Below, in pieces: positions 16,661 to 64,000 of a DNA stretch of 64,000 bases (positions are counted from its first letter, which is position 1; each line of letters starts with the position of its first letter). The DNA lies in contig OX597814.1 in assembly GCA_951406725.2 (NCBI GenBank), forward strand, positions 74,462,001 to 74,526,000, read 5' to 3'. The position numbers were made by a program, and so were the translations under genes. Origin of the DNA: Octopus vulgaris (taxonomy: Eukaryota). The notes below the pieces were generated by a model. It saw only the letters and a list, made by a program, of their open reading frames with translations, ran no database searches and was not told where the DNA came from.

Positions 16661-17276
16661 AAGGCGGCGAGCTGGTAGAAACGTTAGCACGCCGGGCGAA
16701 ATGCTTAGCGATGTTTTGTCTGCCGCTACGTTCTGAGTTCAAATTCCGCCGAGGTCGACTTTGCCTTTCATCCTTTAGTGGTCGATTAAATAAGTACCAG
16801 TTACGAACTGGGGTCGATATAATCGACTTAATCCCTTTGTCTGTCCTTGTTTGTCCCCTCTGTGTTTAGCCCCTTGTGGGTAGTAAAGAAATACGTATTT
16901 CGTCTGCCGTTACGTTCTGAGTTCAAATTCCGCCGAGGTCGACTTTGCCTTTCATCCTTTCGGGGTAGATAAATTAAGTACCAGTTACGCACTGGAGTCG
17001 ATGTAATCGACTTAATCCGTTTGTCTGTCCTTGTTTGTCCCCCCTATGTTTAGCCTCTTGTGGGCAATAAAGAAATAAGGATCGTTAATACGTCGGGCGA
17101 AATGCTTAGCGTATTTCATCTGTCGGTACGTTCTGAGTTTAAATTCCGCCGAGGTCGACTTTGCCTTTCGCCCTTTCGGGGTCGATAAATTAAGTACCAA
17201 TTGTGTACTGGAGTCGATCTAATCGACTGGTCCCCTCCCACCAAATTTCAGGTCTTGTGCCTAGAGTAGAAAAGAT
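16661..17276 (+). mobile_element. Tandem of three tRNA-derived SINEs with Meta-like central domain
   Basis: Head AAGGCGGCGAGCTGGTAGAAACGTTAG, B box GAGTTCAAATTCC, core GCCTTTCATCCTTTCGGGGTCGATAAATTAAGTACC; copies 1-2 end GCCCCTTGTGGG..AAAGAAATA, copy 3 has a different tail. Confidence 0.85.
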
Positions 17277-45854: not shown

Positions 45855-46024
45855 GGCGTGACTGTGCAGTAAGAAGCTTGCTTCCCAGCCACATAATTTC
45901 GGGTTTAGTCCCACTGCGTAGTACCTTGGGCATGTGTCTCCAATAGCCTCAGGCCGACCAAAGCCTTGTGAGTTGATTTGGTAGACGGAAACTGAAAGAC
46001 ACCCGTCGTATATATATATATATA
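45855..46024 (+). mobile_element. tRNA-derived SINE 5' half (3' half at ~49550-49772)
   Basis: Head GGCGTGACTGTGCAGTAAGAAGCTTGC, ACCTTGGGCA core, ends in (TA)n. Confidence 0.75.
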
Positions 46025-46304
46025 GTACTGGAGGATCCAATGCCACCCAGTACACTTCAGGAAAGAAGAAATCTGGAAGGCACCGAAGAACCTGTAAGTT
46101 CTACCTGCGGGGCAAATGTTGGCATGGTGAGGACGGCAAAAACTGCCGGTTCGCGCACCCGACACCCCGCCAGAACTTCAGGGGACTCAAAGAGAAAAAG
46201 TTTACCGAGGGAACACAAGAAATGTCTCCCAGGAAAACTTTCAAAAACGAAGTGCGCTCCTCAGATATTCTGCGCAACGCAGCAGCTGAGCAAGAGTCTT
46301 TTTT

Positions 46305-47660
46305 ATGCATGGCGGAAAGAATTGTCCGGCAGCTAACCTGGCTACACCAAGCACAGAGAAGGAACCCTGCTCACCACTATGCAAGACCACCACAGTCAAC
46401 AGACACGGGATGGCCTCCCCTAACGCCTGCACAGCCGTCACCCCAATACTTTTACTAAATATTGGGGGCCTGTTGCATCAAAATAGAAACAAAATTTCTT
46501 TCCTGAGAGATCTTACTGCATGCAATCAAGCCCTATGCATAGCACTTGTGGAAACTCACCTCAACCTTGATATAGAGGACGCAGAAGTACACATACCAAA
46601 CTATGCCATACTGCGAACAGACAGAAGGGAAAGGAGCCATGGTGGAGTTGCTGTATACATCCGAGATGACCTCACACCCCAGGTCTTGATGACATACTCA
46701 AATTCGGTATGTGACACCTTAATTATATACATAAGACAACATAATATAGTCATATGCAATACATATTGCCCACCGGATGCCCCAAATCACATAGGCAAGT
46801 TTGAAGATTTCCTCACAAGAATTAAAGAAATCCTCATGAATCTGGAACACGTCGTGGCCATATTTCTTATGGGTGATTTCAACTTCCCCAACGTCAAATG
46901 GCCCGAAGGTCACATACTCTCAGGAATGAATCATTGCAAGCAAGTACAGGTGGAGTCCCTGCTCAACCTCACCAATGCCTTATTCATGGAGCAAGTTGTA
47001 CTCAAGTCAACTAGGGCGAATAACATTCTGGATCTCTGCTTCACGAACAATATGGACATCATTCATGATGTGAAAGTGACACCGACATCAGAGCTGTCTA
47101 TGTTTGGGCCGAAAGTAACCAGAGACATGCAGCCTAAAGGAAGCACCCGAAATCTCTCCAATCTGAACTTCCACAAAGCAGATTGGAAATCGATCCAAAA
47201 AGATATCCTCAGAGAGGACTGGCCGGAATGTCTCTCCACACCAGACATTGATATGAAACTAGAATGTTTCATGTCTTCTGTGCAAGCTGTATGCCAGAAA
47301 TATGTCCCAGAGCACAAGGCCAAAACAAATAGGAGCAAGATTCCAAGAGACAGGAAGATCCTCATGAGACGACGGACGAAGGTTGCAAATCGTCTCAACC
47401 AACATCCTAAAAGTAACGAAGCGTCCCGCCTAAAAACAACACTGATGGAGATCGAAAAAAGGCTGCAACAATCCTATGTGAAGGAGAAAGCAGACAAAGA
47501 AGCCTGGGTTATAAAAAACATTAAATCAAACCCAAAGGCCTTCTTTCATTACGCGAAAGAAACAGTCTCAGTGCACTACAAGATAGGACCCCTCCTCCAA
47601 AAGGATGGCTCCCTCACAGACAGTCCAACTATGATCAGTGAGATGCTGAATGACAAGTGA
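46305..47660 (+). pseudogene. LINE ORF2 apurinic-type endonuclease region
   Basis: LLNIGGL, LVETHL, RTDR..HGGVAVYI, MGDFNFP, TRANNILDLCFTN. Confidence 0.92.
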
Positions 47661-47723
47661 ACGAACCAGTGGACTTCTTCGCCGCTTCACCTATAACCAG
47701 CGAGGCGGTTACAATAGAATGTA

Positions 47724-49323
47724 TTGACATTAGCGAATATCCTACTAGCCATAGATGAAGTGGACACAAACTCAGCTGCTAGTCCAGACGGTTTCCCAGC
47801 CATCCTCCTCAAAGCGTGTAAGCATGCCCTGGCAAAACCCCTCAAGATTCTCTTCCAGAGCTTTCTTGCGAATGGCAAACTGCCAAGCAAGCTGAAGGAG
47901 GGAATAATATGCCCAATACATAAAGGGGGAAGTAGAGCAGATGCTAAAAACTATAGGCCTATCTCTCTGACTTCACACATCAGCAAAGTCATGGAAAGGA
48001 TAGTCAGAAAGAAACTAATCGCATTCCTTGAGGAAAATAACTTGCTGAGTAATACCCAGCATGGTTTTCGACCAGGTAGGAGCTGCCTGACCCAGCTCTT
48101 ACAGCATTATGACTGGGTGTTGAGGCAGTTACTCAACAAATCAGATGTGGACGTAATCTACCTTGATTTTGCAAAAGCTTTTGACAAGGTGGATCATGGT
48201 ATGATATGCCACAAACTACGTGACTTCGGCATAGCTGGAAAACTTGGAGTGTGGTTGCATGACTTCCTGAAAGATAGGAGTCAGGCAGTAGTGGTCAATG
48301 GAGCCACCTCTATGAACACACAAATAGTGAGCTGTGTTCCACAGGACACTGTCTTGGGACCACTGCTTTTTATAGTGGCCCTCTCAGATATGCCCTCAAA
48401 TGCCCGGATAGCCACTCTGGCCAGCTATGCAGACGGTACGAAAGTCTCGCAGAAAATACAGAACCCCAGCGATGTTGCACACCTGCAGCAGGAGTTGGAC
48501 TCAATCTACAGATGGGCTGAGGATAATAATATGCAGTTTAATGCTGAAAAATTCCAGGCCCTGCGCTACCAGCATCCAAAACTTAATATTAAACTTACAG
48601 GATACACCGGTCCACAGGGAATTTCAATCCCAGAGCCTAAGTCTGTGAGGGACCTGGGTATCGACATGAGTGATGATACCTCTTTCCAAGTGCACATTAC
48701 CAGGATGGCGACAAAGTGCAAACGACTGGCTGGGTGGATCCTAAGAACATTCAGAACCAGAGATAAGGAAACCATTCGTCCTCAGTCGCCTGGATTACTG
48801 CTCACAGCTATGGTCACCCACCAGTGTAAAATTAACAGCGGACCTTGAAGCAATCCAGAGAAGATTCACAAAGAAGATCGTCTCTTTGCAACAGCTCAGC
48901 TACTGGGAAAGGTTGAAACAGCTAAGACTCTACTCCCTGGAGAGAAGACGGGAGAGGTATGCAGTAATATATGTCTGGAAGATCCTGGAAGTAATTGTAC
49001 CAAATTTTGGCATTTTAAGCTACACCAATGCTAGAACGGGACGACACTGCATAGTGCCAAAGATCCCAGCAATGCCATCACGATTCAGGACCAGCTTCTG
49101 CAACAGCCTGGGTTTCAAGGGCCCACAGCTTTTTAATATTCTCCCAAAGAGTCTGAGGAACTTGCACAAAGTAGATGTAGCGGTTTTTAAATCAAAGCTG
49201 GACATCTTCCTGTCAAGAGTCCCAGATGAACCTACCTCACGGCAAGAGGTGCAAATGAGAGTAGCTGTATCAAACTCCATTCTTCACCAAGTGCCACATA
49301 TTAGACGAGGTTCGTCATCATAA
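47724..49323 (+). pseudogene. LINE ORF2 reverse transcriptase and C-terminus (frameshifted)
   Basis: NYRPISLTSHISKVMER, QHGFRPGRSC, YLDFAKAFDKVDH, VPQDTVLGPLLF, YADGT (mutated YADD), SYWERLKQLRLYSLERRR. Confidence 0.93.
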
Positions 49324-49431
49324 CAGTGTAGCACAAAACGGCGGTGCATCAGCATGGCCGCAGCTCTGAGCTGAAACTAGAAAAAAAAAATATATATATA
49401 TATCTCAATTTACAACCCCTATCTCAATTTG

Positions 49432-52504: not shown

Positions 52505-54200
52505 TAGCATTATGACCCGTCGTTGCCGGGTCATAGTGCTAGTGAATGTATATGTGTATATATATGTGTACATATTACATGTACATCTATATATATACAT
52601 CTACACATAAAATACAAAGTTATATCTTGATATCGCTAGTGATAACAATACTCAAAATATATAACAGACTGGAATTGTAGGCCCGTCTCTTGCAATTTCG
52701 ATCAATTGTATCTTGTCCTCCCTCTTGTATAGAAGTGTGGCTACAATCCAGCCTACCTCTACCTCTACCTCTAGGGGGACATTTTAAATTTTTATCCGGG
52801 ACGTCCTTCGTCCCAGATATAAAGGTAAAAATAAAATATTTCCACTTTGCAAGGTTTGAGTCGAGTACTCCCTTGCATGCTCCGTTGACTCGAACCTTGC
52901 TTCTATTGTGGCGAATTTACCGCCTCTTGTTAGATATCTTTCATAGTCGCACCAAGACACTTTTCGATGGTGCTTTCCTCCAGGTGTTCAAATCTTTTTT
53001 TCTCTATATTGTATACTTTATAGACAATAGTCTTTTCTTTAATTTAATTTTTTATTTCGTTTGGTGGTGTTATCCTAGATTCACCGTCTTTGTCGGTGGT
53101 CAATCAATATTTCTTCCATTTTAATTTCAATGAGTTCGCGCCCACCGACGGCTGCAGCGAAATTCATTTTTGGACTTTCTTCTATCGAAGGCATTCTAAC
53201 AAAAATGCTTCCGTGTAAACGGTGAAAATATTGTCAATTTCCCCAAACAGGGACACAATTCAATTTTTAAACAATAACCAAAGCTACTTCTCCCAAAGGG
53301 GGAGGGTTACAGTTTACAATTATTTAACAAATGCAACACAACAATGTTTCCTTTACGAGGAACCAACAAACGTGATAACAATAGTTAAACAGTAATAATA
53401 ATAACAACAAACCTTACGATGAATCAGAAAGCAGTAAGCAGTTGAAGCTTTAGTCCTTTATGTGTAAGAAATAAACCAACAGCAGTATTCTGTAGAGCCG
53501 GCTGTTCGAGAAAACAGATATTGCATACAGCTAAACTTCCTGTAGATACTTAATGCTAGCTAATTAGCAGATAATCTAATGTAAAAGCACAGCTCCATCT
53601 GGACTATTCCATTTCTGCACGCTAATTTTATTTTTAATTTATTCTCATTCATGTGAAACCACTTATTCAAGTTCAAGTCATTGATGCAATTTTATACCAA
53701 TTGCTATTTTTATTTTTATTTTTATGTTACGATTATATTATACTTTAGTTTGATTTTAATTATTACTTACTACATATAATTCAATTGTTATTATTATTTT
53801 ATTGTTAAAGTGAAAGTATCTGACATAAAATAGAGAAATGTTTTTGTTTCACTTTTAACACGTAATACTGAAATAGTGGAGAAGATATGATATTGCTATG
53901 GGCTCGCTCTAGGCAAGAAATTGAACATTTTTTTTGCTCATGAAACTACATGGACCCTAAGTAAGGCACGTGTAAAATTTGAATGAAATTGGTTGTGTAG
54001 TTCTCAAGTTTTAGGGAATCGTAGTTGAGATTCTGTGGGCTCGACCTAGGCAAAAAGTAAAAAAAATTTTTTGCCGATGACACTCCCCGGACCCTAAGTA
54101 AGGCATTTGTAAAATTTGAATGAAATTAGTTGTGTAGTTCTCATGTTTTAGGGAAACACACAGACAGACAGACACACATTCTCAGTTTTATATATATAGA
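52504..54200 (-). mobile_element. Full-length non-autonomous Helitron family B (1.7 kb)
   Basis: 5' TCTATATATATAAAA at 54200; 3' long hairpin CTAGCATTATGACCCG..CGGGTCATAGTGCTAG ending CTAG|T at 52504. Confidence 0.75.
52770..53050 (-). pseudogene. Fragment of ORF1-like gene inside the Helitron
   Basis: EKTIVYKVYNIEKKRFE..IEKCL / LTRGGKFATIEARFES / PLYLGRRTSRIKI aligns by eye to ORFs 59711 and 61537. Confidence 0.75.
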
Positions 54201-54349
54201 GATATATATGGTGAATCCAAACAATGAAGAACAAACATGAAAGCTCTTCTTCAGAAATAGAGAAAAGTCCAAAAGGTGGGAAGACGGAGGAAGAACGAGT
54301 GAGTAAGACAAACGAAAGAAAGGCACTCAACACATTTACTCATTTATAC

Positions 54350-57962: not shown

Positions 57963-58919
57963 ATATATAAGAGAATAGTAAAGAGTGAAAAAACGACAGA
58001 AGGCTTAAATGTTAAAAAATATATATATTTGCGTCAAAATGTCTGGAGAATATTGGAAAAATTGTTTTCCTCCTTAAAATGACATAATTTTATAATTTTT
58101 AAAGAAATACCGGTTTCGCAGTTAGCTCTTCAAATTTCTTGTGACTTAATGTTTATTTTTAATAACGTAATCCTTGTATTTTTGCTACGGAGAGTTCTAA
58201 ATAAGGGAAAGTAGTGAGTGATTTCTTCCGGTGTAAGGGCGATAATCGCTTAAAAAAAATTTTTTTCCTTTAGTGTGAATTTCTCTGTATTATTGAGTTC
58301 GGATAGTTGAGTCTGGGTTTGTACTTTTCAATGAAGAATGTTTCCATATGAAGAATGTTTCCACGGGACTATCACTCAGACGTAGATGCACACTGCATCG
58401 ACAACAGATTGCATTCCCAGAATATAGAATGATACCTTTTAGTGAACACATTGAGAAATGCGCAAAGCAACTACAACCACAATTTTTAATCTTTCCATTT
58501 TACCAATGTGCTTTCAGATCATCATCACAAATTAGACTAAATAAGGAAACATTCTTCATTGAAAAGTACAAACCCAGACTCAACTATCCGAACTCAATAA
58601 TACAGAGAAATTCACACTAAAGGAAAAAAAAAATTTTTTAAGCGATTATCGCCCTTACACCGGAAGAAATCACTCACTGCTTTCCCTTATTTAGAACTCT
58701 CCGTAGCAAAAATACAAGGATTACGTTATTAAAAATAAACATTAAGTCACAAGAAATTTGAAGAGCTAACTGTGAAACCGGTATTTCTTTAAAAATTATA
58801 AAATTATGTCATTTTAAGGAGGAAAACAATTTTTCCAATATTCTCCAGACATTTTGACGCAAATATATATATTTTTTAACATTTAAGCCTTCTGTCGTTT
58901 TTTCACTCTTTACTATTCT

Positions 58920-58925
<6 letters not shown>
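57963..58925 (+). mobile_element. 5'-truncated Penelope-like element with inverted terminal repeat
   Basis: Arms 57963-58345 and 58545-58925 are near-perfect inverted repeats; the spacer plus right arm encode a GIY-YIG C-terminus TGLSLRRRCTLHRQQI...RLNKETFFIEKYKPRLN. Confidence 0.85.
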
Positions 58926-58962
<37 letters not shown>

Positions 58963-59033: not shown

Positions 59034-59063
59034 CGTATATATAAATACATACATATACGGATA

Positions 59064-59587
59064 TCTTTATATAAAACTGAGAATGTGTCTGTCTGTGTGT
59101 TTCCCTAAAACTCGAGAACTACACAACCAATTTCATTCAAATTTTACACATGCCTTACTTAGGGTTCATGTAGTTTCATGGACAAAAACATGTTCAACTT
59201 CTTGCCTAGAGCGAGCCCATAGCAATATCATATCTTCTCCACTATTTCAGTATTACGTGTTAAAAGTGAAACAAAAACATTTCTCTATTTTATGTCAGAT
59301 ACTTTCACTTTAACAATAAAAATAATAATAACAATTGGATTATATGTAGTAAGTAATAATTAAAATCAAACTAAAGTATAATATAATCGTAACATAAAAA
59401 TAAAAATAAAAATAGCAATTGGTATAAAATTGCATCAATGACTTGAACTTGAATAAGTGGTTTCACATGAATGAGAATAAATTAAAAGTAAAATTAGCGT
59501 GCAGAAATGGAATAGTCCAGATGGATAATAAAAAATTAAATTAAAGAAAAGACTATTGTCTATAAAGTATACAATGTAGAGGAAAAA
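59064..59587 (+). mobile_element. Helitron family B 5' part, internally deleted and interrupted by the ORF1-only array
   Basis: Reverse-complement match to 54200-53600, then jumps to 53056-53000. Confidence 0.8.
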
Positions 59588-61372
59588 GGGTCGCGTTTTT
59601 TCGGCTCCCGTGTTTTTTTGAGTTAGTTAGTTGGAGTTATTCTGGTGTGTTTATTTCGAGTAAAGAGGTTGTGAGTTCGAGTTCGTTGGAGGACGTGGAA
59701 AAATTTTTTCTTGAAAATGCAAGAGCAGACTTACGCGCGAGCGGCAGGCAGAGGCCTGGTTGCCGGTGAACTGGAAATGGAGGAGGTGATGGTCGAACAG
59801 AAGACTTTACAGAAGTATTTCGACAGTTTAAAGAGGGAGGGTGACTGTGTGATAGTCACACCGTCCGAGGAGGAGGAAAGCAGTGCAGAGAAGCGTACTA
59901 TAACGTACAGGACGTGGTGCGTGGAGTCGAAGAAGATTGAAGTAGCGGAAATGGAAGAAGTGGAAAGGTGTCTGAAGGAAATTGAGGGTGAACCAGCATT
60001 TTTTAAAAGAGGAAGGAAGTATGCCACGGTAGTGGTGTATTTTAAAACAGAAGAGGAGGCAAAAAAGAACGCTACAAGAATTTTGAAATCGGATAAGTGG
60101 ACTTTGCTACCAAGTTACTGCGGAAGGAGAGCAGTGAGGATGAGAATCAATAGAATCTCACCCGAATTTAATATGGAAAGGTTGCTGGCAGCAGTGCTGT
60201 TTAACTGCAAGGATGATGTGGAGGTACTGAAGGTGGAGAAGTCAGCAGAGGTGAAGTGGTGGGGATATACGGTGCAGGTTCTGGCACACATAACCGTGCG
60301 AGACCTGTACAACATCCCGGAGGAGTTGGTCTACCCTGACGAAACACGGCTCCGAGTTGTGGTAGAGGGAAGACCCCCAATTTGCTATAACTGTAAATCG
60401 AGGGGCCACATGAAGGATGTGTGCCCGCGAGAAAAAACAAAAGCACCAGAGGTTGTGATAGAGGAGTGTAAAGAAGCGTGTGTGGAGGAAGCGAAAGCGG
60501 AGGAAACACAAATGGAGGAGCAGTTAAATGAGGAAGAACGAGCAAGTGCAGAAGAGGAAAAAACAGAAGACAAGAAGAGATCAAGGGTGGAATCACCACC
60601 GAAAGATATAAAAAAGAAAAAAATCAAAAGCAAGATAGCAGAAGAGAGAGAAGAGAAAAAAGAACAGGAAGTAAAAGAAAAGGTGAGAGAGCGACCAAGG
60701 ACAGAGTTTGAACAAGAATGGGAGACAAGAGTGAACGAACAATTGGAATCGTGTAAATATGGAAGAAGGCCTACAGGAAAAAACTTGAAGGCAGTTGTGA
60801 TGTATATCAAGAATACAGAAGTGGAAAAGAGACTTGTAGGTAAGAAAGGGTTGGTCAGGGTGAAGGTGAACCCAAAACTGTATGGTGAAGATGTAAAAGG
60901 CGTCATTATAGACAAGGAGACATACACAAAATTAAAAAAGATATATCATGCTATGCATATAATGCATTATGTACGGTATGATAAATTACCAGATGTAATA
61001 GATCAAACGGACCTATTGGATTATATGACGGACGAGTGTCTAATGTAAAAGAATTAGAATTGTTACTTGTAAAATTATTTGATGTAAAGTTGTGTTTTTG
61101 AACAGGAATATATGTAATGTTAACATGTAAAATTGTAAAATTATTGTACTGTGAACTGGAATATATGTAACTGTAAAATTGTATTTTGAACTGGAATATA
61201 TGAAATGTATAATTGTATTTTAAACGGAACTGCGAGTTGGGGGTTCGTAAGCCGTTCCATCTCATTACATATAAATTCATCTTTTACTTCATATTTTATT
61301 TTTACTTTATGTACCCCATGTCCCGTCTTGTAATGTCCCCCTCTTCGTGGCCCCTTGTGGGTAATAAAAAAA
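59588..61372 (+). mobile_element. ORF1-only non-LTR retroelement unit A
   Basis: TCGCGTTTTTT start, single ORF, 3' UTR, tail GCCCCTTGTGGGTAATAAA plus A run. Confidence 0.7.
59717..61048 (+). CDS. L1/Tx1 ORF1-like (gag-like) protein with RRM-like region and CCHC zinc knuckle
   Basis: Open for ~443 aa; TYARAA motif; GRPPICYNCKSRGHMKDVCP (CX2CX4HX4C); E/K-rich linker. Confidence 0.85.
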   Translation: MQEQTYARAAGRGLVAGELEMEEVMVEQKTLQKYFDSLKREGDCVIVTPSEEEESSAEKRTITYRTWCVESKKIEVAEMEEVERCLKEIEGEPAFFKRGRKYATVVVYFKTEEEAKKNATRILKSDKWTLLPSYCGRRAVRMRINRISPEFNMERLLAAVLFNCKDDVEVLKVEKSAEVKWWGYTVQVLAHITVRDLYNIPEELVYPDETRLRVVVEGRPPICYNCKSRGHMKDVCPREKTKAPEVVIEECKEACVEEAKAEETQMEEQLNEEERASAEEEKTEDKKRSRVESPPKDIKKKKIKSKIAEEREEKKEQEVKEKVRERPRTEFEQEWETRVNEQLESCKYGRRPTGKNLKAVVMYIKNTEVEKRLVGKKGLVRVKVNPKLYGEDVKGVIIDKETYTKLKKIYHAMHIMHYVRYDKLPDVIDQTDLLDYMTDECLM

Positions 61373-63106
61373 TCGCGTTTTTTTGCGCTCTGTAAAATTC
61401 GGTAAAAAAGAACAAAAAGCGTTGTTGTTGTTGTGGAAATTCTGAACGGCGTTGACGCGGTTTCGCGTTTCGCTCGTTCAGCGCGTTACACTTTTTCTGT
61501 TTTGGCGGCCGTTTTCGGTCTGTCAGACAGAAGGAGATGGACTATGAGTCTCTAACAGACTTGTCCACGACAGATGAGGAACTGGAACAGGCAATTGCAA
61601 TGAAGCTGATGGAAGAAAAGGCTGGAGTTTTCGAGTCTTTATCAGACTTGTCTACATCTGAGGAGGAGCTAGAAATAGCAGTGAGGAAAATGGATCAGAA
61701 GCTGGGTTATACCTATGCCGGTGTAACCAAGAAGGCGGAAGAGAAAGGGGTCGACATGGCCAAGTTGCCAAGTTACCAGAAATACATGAAAAAGGAAAGC
61801 GGTGAGGTGGAACTATCACCGACACCCAGGAGAAAAGAATGGTATGATAAGAGGACCATTGTTTACAGGGTGTTCGCAAACGAAAGGAAGAGGGTAGAAG
61901 TTGTAACCATGGAATGGATAGAGGAAGCCCTGCGAAGAACTGAGGAGGAAATAAATTTTCTGACTCGAGGATCCAAGTACGGGACCGTAGTTGTGCACTT
62001 TAAAAGTGAATCTGTAGCGAGGAAGATGGCAGCGAAGGCGGTGAAGTCGGAAAAGGTAACACTGTTACCTACGTATTTAAACAGGAGGATTACACGAATA
62101 AGGGTGGAGGGAGTGCCACCAAACGTGGAGGCAGAATGGATTGTGGCGGCTGTGATCAGCGGCCACGAGGACGAAGTGGATATTCTCCATGCCTCGGTTA
62201 AGTCCGAGGGCTGGAGAGGCGTAACAGTGGAGCTGAACGTACAGGCAGAGACCGAGGTACTGGTGGACCTGACGGAAAGCATCAGACTGGGAGAAGTGAT
62301 CATGAGAGTGTGGGTGGAGGGCAGGGCTCCACGTTGTTACAAGTGTGGCCTGAGGGGTCACATAAGAGCCTTCTGCCCTCCCCCAGGGAAAGAAATGGAT
62401 CCCGAACCAGAGAGAGAGAAGCAGAAACCAGAGGAGAAGGAAACAGAGGAAGAGAATACACAGAAATGGAAGGAAGCTGGAAGTAAGAGGAAGAGAAGAA
62501 TATGTGGAAAAAAAGAAAATAATATGGAACTCCAATCTACCCCAAAACCTCCCACACCCTCTGAGTCCCACCCTATCCATGCAGACATTGAACCCACCCG
62601 CTCCCCCCAACAAGAAAACAAAAGAAAAAAAGAATACACACACACAAGAGATTGAAATCGAACCCAGGCCGTACATTTGTACTATGACTGAACAGAGGGA
62701 AGTTAAAAGTCTAATGGAAGAGTATAAACGGTATGATGTTGGAGAGACTAGGTATGCTGTGATTGAAAAAAAGAACATAGGTGAGTTTATGGGGAGGTGT
62801 GAAAGGGAGAATTGGGAGGTGAAAGATATAAGAATGAGCGATGAATTCGTGGAAAATATGAATGAGTATTTCGGAGTAAGAATGGATATGGAATTTATTC
62901 GTATTGGCAAAGAACATTCAAGTGACTATGAAAAACAAAGGACAGGTAAGTGATGCTGACGGACGGGGCCGTTGGTATCGCTTTCATTTTATCATTTTTT
63001 TCGTTTAACACTTCATGTTCATATAGTTTAATTATAATGTTCTATGTCCCCATGTTTTGTGATGTCCGGCACTCTTCGTAGCCCCTTAGTGGGTAATAAA
63101 GAAATA
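61373..63106 (+). mobile_element. ORF1-only non-LTR retroelement unit B1
   Basis: TCGCGTTTTTTT start, CpG-rich 5' UTR, ORF, tail GCCCCTTAGTGGGTAATAAAGAAATA. Confidence 0.7.
61537..62953 (+). CDS. Paralogous ORF1-like CCHC protein (61537-62655, probably continuing via a frameshift to 62953)
   Basis: KRTIVYR, LTRGSKYGTVVVHFK, LLPTYLNRR, GRAPRCYKCGLRGHIRAFCP; overlapping ORF 62504-62953 supplies a plausible C-terminus. Confidence 0.8.
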
Positions 63107-63309
63107 CGTATTGGCAAAGAACATTCAAGTGACTATGAAAAACAAAGGACAGGTAAGTGATGCTGACGGACGGGGCCGTTGGTATCGCTTTCATTTTATC
63201 ATTTTTTTTCGTTTAACAATACATGTTCATAAAGTTTAATTATAATGTTCTATGTCCCCATGTCTTTTGTTGTCCCCCTCTGTGTCGCCCCTTAGTGGGT
63301 AATAAAAAA
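63107..63309 (+). repeat. Second copy of the unit B 3' end (5'-truncated unit)
   Basis: Repeats 62900-63106 with a diverged tail. Confidence 0.85.
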
Positions 63310-64000
63310 TCATCTCGTTTTTTTGCGCTCTGTAAAATTCGGTAAAAAAGAACAAAAAGCGTTGTTGTTGTTGTGGAAATTCTGAACGGCGTTGACGCGG
63401 TTTCGCGTTTCGCTCGTTCAGCGCGTTACACTTTTTCTGTTTTGGCGGCCGTTTTCGGTCTGTCAGACAGAAGGAGATGGACTATGAGTCTCTAACAGAC
63501 TTGTCCACGACAGATGAGGAACTGGAACAGGCAATTGCAATGAAGCTGATGGAAGAAAAGGCTGGAGTTTTCGAGTCTTTATCAGACTTGTCTACATCTG
63601 AGGAGGAGCTAGAAATAGCAGTGAGGAAAATGGATCAGAAGCTGGGTTATACCTATGCCGGTGTAACCAAGAAGGCGGAAGAGAAAGGGGTCGACATGGC
63701 CAAGTTGCCAAGTTACCATAAATACATGAAAAAGGAAAGCGGTGAGGTGGAACTATCACCGACACCCAGGAGAAAAGAATGGTATGATAAGAGGACCATT
63801 ATTTACAGGGTGTTCGCAAACGAAAGGAAGAGGGTAGAAGTTGTAACCATGGAATGGATAGAGGAAGCCCTGCGAAGAACTGAGGAGGAAATAAATTTTC
63901 TGACTCGAGGACCTAAGTACGGGACCGTAGTTGTGCATTTCAAAACTGAGTCTGCAGCGAGGAAGATGGCGGCGAAGGCGGTGAAGTCAGAAAAGGTAAC
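63310..64000 (+). mobile_element. ORF1-only unit B2 (runs off window)
   Basis: Near-identical to 61373-62060. Confidence 0.8.
63477..64000 (+). CDS. ORF1-like protein of unit B2 (partial, open to window end)
   Basis: MDYESLTDLSTTDEELEQ..., no stop seen. Confidence 0.8.
   Translation, partial: MDYESLTDLSTTDEELEQAIAMKLMEEKAGVFESLSDLSTSEEELEIAVRKMDQKLGYTYAGVTKKAEEKGVDMAKLPSYHKYMKKESGEVELSPTPRRKEWYDKRTIIYRVFANERKRVEVVTMEWIEEALRRTEEEINFLTRGPKYGTVVVHFKTESAARKMAAKAVKSEKV

What the first reader, a model, noticed from the sequence alone, without database searches (positions are those of the whole stretch)
61305..61372. ORF1-only units share their 3' tail with a tRNA-SINE family 45 kb away
Seen: tails TGTCCCCCTCTTCGTGGCCCCTTGTGGGTAATAAA (A), GCCCCTTAGTGGGTAATAAAGAAATA (B1) and TGTCCCCCTCTGTGTCGCCCCTTAGTGGGTAATAAA (63271-63309) match SINE tails TGTCCCCTCTGTGTTTAGCCCCTTGTGGGTAGTAAAGAAATA (16852-16893) and 17036-17077. 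All keep a CCC-loop-GGG hairpin before an AATAAA-like signal. Known: SINEs share 3' tails with the LINE whose RT mobilises them. Inference: coding ORF1-only units and non-coding SINEs both parasitise one unseen stringent-type partner RT.
Basis: partly seen in the sequence, partly recalled or inferred. Interest (0 to 1): 0.8.

Follow-up and report, generated by a model that had tools for sequence, protein, structure and literature searches.

The report
Octopus half-LINEs share a SINE's tail
In what is likely octopus DNA, two families of jumping genes that carry only an RNA-binding-type gene end in the same short sequence as one version of a common small repeat, so all three likely borrow one copying enzyme from a complete jumping gene, probably of the Tx1 type, that is not in this window.

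Summary
The shared tail is real (z 10-16 against shuffles). Units A and B are distantly related (38% protein identity), multi-copy ORF1-only retroposons. Each encodes a predicted two-RRM + CCHC protein, has no room for ORF2, and has octopus relatives. They resemble each other over about 90 terminal bases, and 2 of 9 local SINE copies over about 70. The tails are not separate SINE insertions: no SINE body precedes them, and one listed multi-copy contig joins B's UTR to its tail (not shown for A). Three corrections. The third tail is a 207-bp duplicate of B1's end. The hairpin is not CCC/GGG-specific but a weak 4-bp stem around CTTGT, with compensatory changes across SINE tail types. The 45-kb distance is irrelevant. 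The units stand head to tail inside a Helitron-like element whose empty copy is in the window. I could not find the autonomous partner (no genome held). Tx1 identity rests on ORF1 type and on unchecked earlier notes. This scan has already found the same system many times on other DNA of this and other genomes. ORF1-only LINEs are known (HAL1, HeT-A, Ag-Sponge); tail-sharing with a SINE in an animal L1/Tx1 context would be the new part.

The parts
59591..61372 (+). Unit A: ORF1-only retroposon, about 1.78 kb; head TCGCG+T-run, ORF 59717-61048 (443 aa), 3' UTR, tail
   Evidence: 329- and 313-nt identical contigs at depth 342 and 357 in run X3 against 11-21 for divergent contigs
61288..61372 (+). 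Tail of A (about 85 nt shared with B, last about 70 nt shared with SINE S1/S2); hairpin 61350-61362, AATAAA, short A-run
61373..63106 (+). Unit B1: second ORF1-only family, about 1.73 kb; ORF 61537-62655 (372 aa) with a further open stretch in the next frame to 62953; tail about 63018-63106, hairpin 63081-63094
   Evidence: (extra base at 62602 and at 62624 in many contigs of all 4 runs; 280-nt contig at depth 4736 in X3)
63107..63311 (+). 207-bp second copy of B's 3' end (end of ORF, UTR, variant tail; hairpin 63287-63300); not a separate full unit
63312..64000 (+). Unit B2, 98% identical to B1, cut by the window end
   Evidence: 5 synonymous and 5 non-synonymous codon differences in 174 codons
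16661..16894 (+). SINE copy S1 with the shared tail (hairpin 16869-16881)
16895..17078 (+). SINE copy S2, 5'-truncated, 91% to S1, shared tail (hairpin 17053-17065)
17080..17272 (+). SINE copy S3: same head and body, different tail that keeps a 4-bp stem around CTTGT with another stem sequence (17250-17262)
59060..59587 (+). 5' part of the Helitron-like host element, ending inside a captured ORF1-family scrap at the landing site of the train
   Evidence: 59101-59525 = 54018-53594 (97%), 59527-59587 = 53056-52996 (97%)
52505..54208 (-). Empty copy of the Helitron-like host; carries the ORF1-family scrap (53091-52685) and ends in a hairpin plus CTAG
   Evidence: the Helitron label rests on recalled end hallmarks

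Best explanation
Units A and B are two multi-copy retroposon families of a likely octopus genome that encode only an ORF1-type protein (predicted two RRMs plus a CCHC knuckle) and end in the same tail as one variant of a local SINE, and all three likely use that tail, with its small predicted CUUGU-loop hairpin, to be copied in trans by the reverse transcriptase of an autonomous LINE, probably of the Tx1/L1 group, that is not in this window. Shown: the layout, the shared tail, its greater conservation than the rest of the units, multi-copy status, attachment of the tail to B's UTR in a multi-copy contig, covariation of the 4-bp stem across SINE tail types, and that A and B both join the same site in a Helitron-like element. 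Inferred: Pol II transcription of the units, packaging by their own ORF1p, recruitment of a partner ORF2p through the tail, origin of the units by loss of ORF2 from LINE ancestors, capture of the tail by the SINE through template switching, and growth of the train by repeated insertion or template jumping at one site.
For: Tail similarity far above chance. A and B proteins are 38% identical in the core and each groups with a different octopus gene-model protein (97/82 and 97/91 support); their 5' UTRs and upstream 3' UTRs align no better than shuffles, yet their last about 90 nt share 72 of 93 columns. AlphaFold model pLDDT 95, best matches tandem-RRM proteins; ESM Atlas neighbours are CCHC and ZCCHC3-like two-RBD proteins: a Type I ORF1 (PMC5203782, passages). 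712 related clusters; all 13 named representatives of 20 looked up are Octopus or Argonauta gene models. No SINE body lies before any unit tail. X3 contig 63204-63308 (depth 350) bridges B's UTR and tail; B-type tail contigs reach depth 848-1447. Stem test on 8 tails: 27 of 32 cells paired, 9 cells changed on both sides, 0 of 500 shuffles as high, slid controls 22-50% paired. Contigs join the Helitron-like flank straight to a B head without A (X14 59588 to 61373, depth 107; X3 59589 to 63316, depth 178).
Against: No autonomous element with this tail was seen: none of the RT-bearing relics in the window ends in it. For A no listed contig bridges UTR and tail (32 of about 26,900 records shown); for B only 1 of 16 listed records meets the 31-letters-each-side rule (158 not shown), and in run X2 depth falls from about 2,000 to about 330 inside the tail, where a loose end matches B1's other tail variant. 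Type I ORF1 is not specific to Tx1 (PMC5203782, passages). No target-site duplication lies between the units and the far end of the train is outside the window.
Confidence: 0.68

Rival explanations
1. Shared ancestry without stringent recognition: the partner is a relaxed L1-type RT that primes on any A-rich end; A and B keep the tail as a Pol II 3'-end signal, and the SINE merely captured a LINE end.
For: AATAAA and an A-run end the tails; the hairpin is weak; few L1-clade LINEs share tails with SINEs (3 among over 800; PMC3747384, passages).
Against: Conservation extends 60-80 nt upstream of AATAAA; S1 reads AGTAAA; a Pol III-type SINE has no evident need for a poly(A) signal; the stem covaries across SINE tail types.
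Confidence: 0.14
2. The partner is a stringent LINE of another clade (I/Nimb, L2 or CR1 group) rather than Tx1/L1.
For: Mollusc SINE partners described so far are CR1, CR1-Zenon, L2 and Nimb (PMC11481361, PMC4824008, passages); RRM+CCHC ORF1s also occur in the Jockey superfamily (PMC5203782, passages); I saw no RT.
Against: The window's CR1-like element has a different ORF1 knuckle (CCCH) and an unrelated 3' end; repeated use of one site inside another transposon is typical of Tx1 (PMC4494074, passages); unchecked notes name a Tx1.
Confidence: 0.09
3. The tails are SINE-derived: 5'-truncated SINE insertions or template switches put a SINE end on decayed LINE 5' halves.
For: The tail matches the SINE, which is abundant (9 copies in 64 kb); bridging of UTR and tail is not shown for A.
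Against: A and B tails resemble each other more and further upstream than either resembles the SINE (scores 65-70 vs 36-49); no SINE body precedes them; B's tail variants are multi-copy and joined to its UTR.
Confidence: 0.04
4. The units are mostly passengers of DNA-level events (Helitron copying, tandem duplication) and no longer retrotranspose; the tail is a relic.
For: The train lies in a Helitron-like element; B1, its 207-bp duplicate and B2 are adjacent, with no target duplication between them.
Against: Loose ends show B tails and heads joined to unrelated flanks, and B at the site without A; ORFs are largely intact in high-depth contigs.
Confidence: 0.05

Closest known systems
ORF1-present non-autonomous LINEs: HAL1 (L1 clade), HeT-A (Jockey clade), Ag-Sponge (CR1 clade) (PMC5786205 and PMC5753468, passages; primary HAL1 paper not held)
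   Same: One ORF1-type gene, no ORF2, LINE-like 3' end, multi-copy, dependent on a partner RT; HeT-A also forms head-to-tail arrays (recalled).
   Different: Type I ORF1 (two RRMs + CCHC) in a likely octopus; two deeply diverged families with one conserved tail that a SINE also carries; arrays sit in a dispersed Helitron-like element, not at telomeres.
Stringent SINE/LINE pairs: bivalve CORE/V/Meta SINEs with CR1, CR1-Zenon, L2, Nimb (PMC4824008, PMC11481361); in the L1 clade maize ZmSINE2/3 with LINE1-1_ZM and Chlamydomonas SINEX-3_CR with L1-1_CR (PMC3747384) (passages)
   Same: 35-80-nt shared 3' tail, small stem-loop with compensatory changes, several tail types on one SINE body.
   Different: Here the visible partners are ORF1-only units, the autonomous LINE is unseen, and a Tx1/L1 partner in an animal is not among the pairs in the passages read.
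Tx1-Mar LINEs with SINEU in Mariner-N4_AMi; Tx1 in Tx1D (PMC4494074, passages)
   Same: Retroposons that land repeatedly, often in tandem, at set places inside a non-autonomous DNA transposon.
   Different: No LINE sharing the SINEU-1 3' terminus was found there, and no ORF1-only passengers appear in the passages read; here the link is a shared tail and the host is Helitron-like.

Membership tests
ORF1-present non-autonomous LINE (HAL1/HeT-A/Ag-Sponge type) | Encodes an ORF1p-like RNA-binding protein | tested here: met
   Predicted tandem RRM + CCHC fold, zf-CCHC, ZCCHC3-like neighbours
ORF1-present non-autonomous LINE (HAL1/HeT-A/Ag-Sponge type) | No ORF2 between ORF1 and the 3' end | tested here: met
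   324 nt (A) and 153 nt (B) from stop codon to tail end; A's stop is bridged by a 204-nt identical contig at depth 843; for B continuous cover but no single listed bridging record
ORF1-present non-autonomous LINE (HAL1/HeT-A/Ag-Sponge type) | Multi-copy family | tested here: met
   X3 contig depths 342-357 (A) and 4736 (B) vs 11-21 for divergent contigs; rough, depth is not a copy count
ORF1-present non-autonomous LINE (HAL1/HeT-A/Ag-Sponge type) | Shares ends with an autonomous LINE that supplies ORF2p | not testable with these tools
   No genome held; reported only in unchecked earlier notes
ORF1-present non-autonomous LINE (HAL1/HeT-A/Ag-Sponge type) | Target-site duplication / TPRT footprint | tested here: inconclusive
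   None between units; far end of the train lies outside the window
HAL1 in the strict sense (mammalian L1-derived) | Type II ORF1 (Transposase_22) in a mammal | tested here: not met
   0 of 55 family members hit Transposase_22 at E 0.05, 10 hit zf-CCHC; relatives are octopods
Tx1 clade | RT phylogeny | not testable with these tools
   No RT linked to the tail was recovered
Tx1 clade | Type I ORF1 (RRM + CCHC); typical, not diagnostic | tested here: met
   PMC5203782 passages
Tx1 clade | Target-sequence preference | tested here: inconclusive
   A here and B in two runs join the same Helitron-like site, but B ends also join other flanks; no genome-wide count
Stringent SINE/LINE pair | SINE 3' tail homologous to a LINE-derived 3' end | tested here: met
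   With the ORF1-only units only:
Stringent SINE/LINE pair | Conserved 3' stem-loop with compensatory changes | tested here: inconclusive
   Covariation in 3 of 4 pairs over 8 tails but weak energy and low pairing probability in context
Stringent SINE/LINE pair | Tail required for retrotransposition | not testable with these tools
   Needs a cell assay
tRNA-derived SINE (SINE2) | tRNA-like head with A and B boxes | tested here: inconclusive
   ARAGORN and Rfam find nothing; a recalled A-box pattern matched 3 of 3 heads, a recalled B-box pattern 0 of 3, though a near match is visible
tRNA-derived SINE (SINE2) | Short, dispersed, non-coding, modular head-body-tail | tested here: met
   9 copies on both strands with one body and at least three tail types
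Octopus SINEs OK/OR1/OR2 (Ohshima and Okada 1994) | Sequence identity to the published families | not tested
   Paper seen only as a citation; sequences not available

The most novel reading that the evidence does not exclude
An animal Tx1/L1-clade reverse transcriptase picks its RNA by a tiny CUUGU-loop hairpin near the 3' end instead of by poly(A), and feeds a whole community through it: several ORF1-only families that stack at one Helitron-borne landing site, and a major octopus SINE whose different tail types are all stem-swapped versions of the same hairpin.
Probability: 0.45. Interest if true: 0.65.

Novelty: new variant of a known kind. Interest (0 to 1): 0.45.

Why it matters
SINE-LINE tail sharing is rare in the L1 clade (3 pairs among over 800 LINEs, in plants and a green alga, per PMC3747384). 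If the partner is a Tx1, octopus gives an animal test of whether stringent 3'-end recognition is ancestral in L1-clade elements, with natural tail variants and young, largely intact ORF1-only families as ready substrates. It would also name the engine behind part of the SINE load of octopus (11.6% of the O. vulgaris assembly; L1-Tx1 has 13 recently active families; PMC13282606). Each component is known from other animals, so the gain is a new combination and a test system, not a new mechanism.

Tried and rejected
Whole genome not held. Search for the autonomous partner outside the window found nothing: tail pattern in metagenome, viral and prokaryote contigs 0 matches each, ORF1 relatives in metagenome contigs 0 of 543 candidates; these collections are not where octopus DNA is expected, so this is no evidence. 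Three word-index protein searches gave no hit although HMMER found 712 clusters; the index is insensitive here. 0 of 24 homologs scanned carry an EN or RT Pfam domain (the top hit P0003 is only a zinc-knuckle repeat, P0044 and P0106 are fused to unrelated host domains), and 1 of 152 proteins had a YxDD-like string outside any RT context; since ORF2 is a separate frame this says little. A 25-position covariance model run over the window with filters off returned its 8 training tails, both B tails (E 0.5, 0.9) and 7 weak hits; two checked were unrelated and none lay at the end of the CR1, RTE or Penelope relics. No RNA holder listed on record. The SINE-head landing site of earlier notes does not apply to this train: the 5' flank is Helitron-like. 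Sequence look-ups in earlier findings returned nothing. PDB sequence search matched only zinc knuckles. A host ZCCHC3-like gene cluster was rejected: no introns, high copy number, shared tail with a SINE, position inside a transposon.

Full report
Observation. The five tails are in the sequence. Two patterns give 3 and 5 matches against 0.02 and 0.01 by chance. Local alignment scores of the unit tails against SINE copies S1 and S2 are 36-49, z 9.6-16.2; against three other SINE tails and the CR1 end they are at chance level. The shared part is about 70 nt with the SINE (51-62 identities over four pairs) and about 90 nt between A and B (72 of 93 and 70 of 90 columns). The tail at 63271-63309 belongs to a 207-bp second copy of B1's end, not to a third unit. 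Only 2 of 9 SINE copies in the window carry this tail.

Host and units. A profile of the two ORF cores finds 712 clusters at E 0.001. Of 20 representatives looked up, 13 carry names, all Octopus bimaculoides, O. vulgaris, O. sinensis or Argonauta gene models; 7 are unnamed. The window is therefore likely octopus. A (59591-61372) has a 443-aa ORF, B1 (61373-63106) a 372-aa ORF plus an open stretch in the next frame; contigs of all four runs show an extra base at 62602 and at 62624 (in X3, 8660 of 10185 and 4736 of 5880 depth), so this copy probably lost two bases that many copies have. The cores are 38% identical and each is sister to a different octopus protein, so the families are old lineages. 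The model (pLDDT 95, 55 sequences) matches tandem-RRM proteins (Foldseek E 4e-5, TM about 0.3; VIA Z 9.1, rmsd 2.8, 83 residues to La RRM) and ends in a CCHC knuckle. That is a Type I ORF1, seen in Tx1-type L1s of non-mammalian animals but also in other clades (PMC5203782, passages). Only 324 and 153 nt separate the stop codons from the tail ends, so there is no ORF2. In run X3, identical contigs of 313-329 nt in A have depth 342-357 and a 280-nt contig in B depth 4736, against 11-21 for divergent contigs: roughly tens of near-identical A and hundreds of B copies, with the tool's warning that depth is not a copy count.

Is the tail part of the unit? No SINE body lies in 59.5-64 kb. A and B tails are closer to each other than to the SINE, while their 5' UTRs and upstream 3' UTRs align no better than shuffles. 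One of 16 listed records (158 not shown) bridges B's UTR and tail with 31 or more letters each side (X3, 63204-63308, depth 350); others carry B-type tails at depth 848-1447. X3 depth does not fall across the border; X2 depth falls from about 2,000 to about 330 within the tail, where a loose end matches B1's other tail variant. For A no bridging record was listed.

The hairpin. Whole-tail folds are unremarkable in 4 of 5 cases. Following a lead from notes e1-10350414 and e1-9982348, I scanned all 168 CTTGT/CTTAGT loops in the window: 7 have a stem of 4 bp or more, 6 of them at these tails including S3, whose stem has another sequence (by my rough base-frequency estimate, not from a call, 3-4 of 168 would arise by chance, so the count alone is weak). 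Across 8 tails (A, S1, S2, S3 and four other SINE copies; the two B tails were left out because their loop has one extra base) 27 of 32 cells pair, 9 cells change on both sides, none of 500 shuffles reaches the score, slid controls pair 22-50%, while two measures that count pairs or types do not exceed shuffles (267 and 117 of 500). The copies are related and fall into about three tail types, so this is suggestive only. The stem is weak (-3 to -4 kcal/mol) and would need a protein to hold it.

Surroundings. After notes raised the question of a landing site, I found that the 5' flank of A is a deleted copy of an element present whole at 52.5-54.2 kb (97% identity). That copy ends in a hairpin plus CTAG (Helitron label from recalled hallmarks), carries a scrap of an ORF1 of this same family and is empty at the site. 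Contigs join this flank directly to a B head in two runs, so A and B use the same site independently. B ends also join unrelated flanks. Units join tail to head without target duplication, which fits template jumping or repeated insertion; I cannot tell these apart.

The partner. Not seen. The window's CR1, RTE and Penelope relics do not end in the tail. No genome is held. Earlier notes from other pieces of this genome report an intact Tx1 LINE with the tail and in the same trains; they are unchecked AI notes and I count them as leads. My odds for Tx1/L1 rest on ORF1 type, the transposon-internal landing site typical of Tx1 (PMC4494074, passages) and the presence of young L1-Tx1 families in O. 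vulgaris (PMC13282606, parts 1-2 of 3 and its one supplement searched).

Known or new. ORF1-present non-autonomous LINEs are an established class (PMC5786205, PMC5753468, passages), as are SINE-LINE tail pairs in molluscs (PMC4824008, PMC11481361, PMC4758252, passages). L1-clade tail pairs are rare and were listed for maize, sorghum and Chlamydomonas (PMC3747384, passages). Ten full-text searches (listings read, passages of the papers named here plus PMC8967140 and PMC10886601) showed no description of octopus ORF1-only elements or of a Tx1-tailed octopus SINE. Not seen: Ohshima and Okada 1994, Bao and Jurka 2010, Repbase, Dfam, SINEBase, the Zenodo library of PMC13282606 and one supplement of PMC4824008; any may already hold these families. 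Within this scan the system has been reported many times on other DNA.

Verdict. Observation confirmed with corrections; interpretation partly supported; new variant of a known kind; interest 0.45.

Noticed in passing
window 52505-54208 (-) and 59060-59587 (+): Helitron-like non-autonomous family that carries a scrap of the same ORF1 family; one copy is empty, the other holds the A-B train at a site inside the scrap.
   Followed up: partly
window 16885-16905, 63097-63117, 63303-63320, 52985-53000 (-): Tail ends look complementary to the bases just downstream of the junction (GAAATA before CGTATT at both S1/S2 and B1/duplicate; AAAATC of B-type tails against GATTT at the empty Helitron site). 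Matches of 5-7 bases in a few cases; in line with note e1-8667107, not tested statistically.
   Followed up: no
window 16661-17272: Three SINE copies in tandem; S2 starts at the same head position where S1's body starts, as if the SINE inserts into its own head; a 12-base near-repeat flanks the cluster (10 of 12 bases alike).
   Followed up: partly
window 59636-60003 (X1 record 1): A low-depth DNA contig differs from A at 49 of about 370 places with clustered A>G changes, and A>G is the commonest change in all 4 runs: possible RNA-editing marks fixed by retrotransposition.
   Followed up: no
window 63237 (loose ends): Two X3 contigs share B's tail from 63237 on but have about 144 unrelated bases upstream: a further tail-sharing family, possibly the autonomous partner; only 30 letters shown.
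   Followed up: no
window 57963-58928: Near-perfect inverted repeat (309-nt arms, 98%, with a second 98-nt pair inside): fold-back element or assembly artefact, next to a Tc1/mariner relic at 57.1-57.85 kb.
   Followed up: no
window 45985-49370 (+): Near-complete CR1-like LINE (CCCH knuckle, endonuclease, RT, several frameshifts) whose 3' end is unrelated to the shared tail.
   Followed up: partly
window 35.1-36.5 kb (-), 31.6-32.7 kb (-), 44.3-45.0 kb (+), 1.2-1.7 kb (-), 22.4-22.8 kb (-): Relics of RTE-like, Penelope-like (GIY-YIG), integrase and mariner elements.
   Followed up: no
window 61083-61217: A's 3' UTR holds three imperfect 34-nt repeats absent from B.
   Followed up: no
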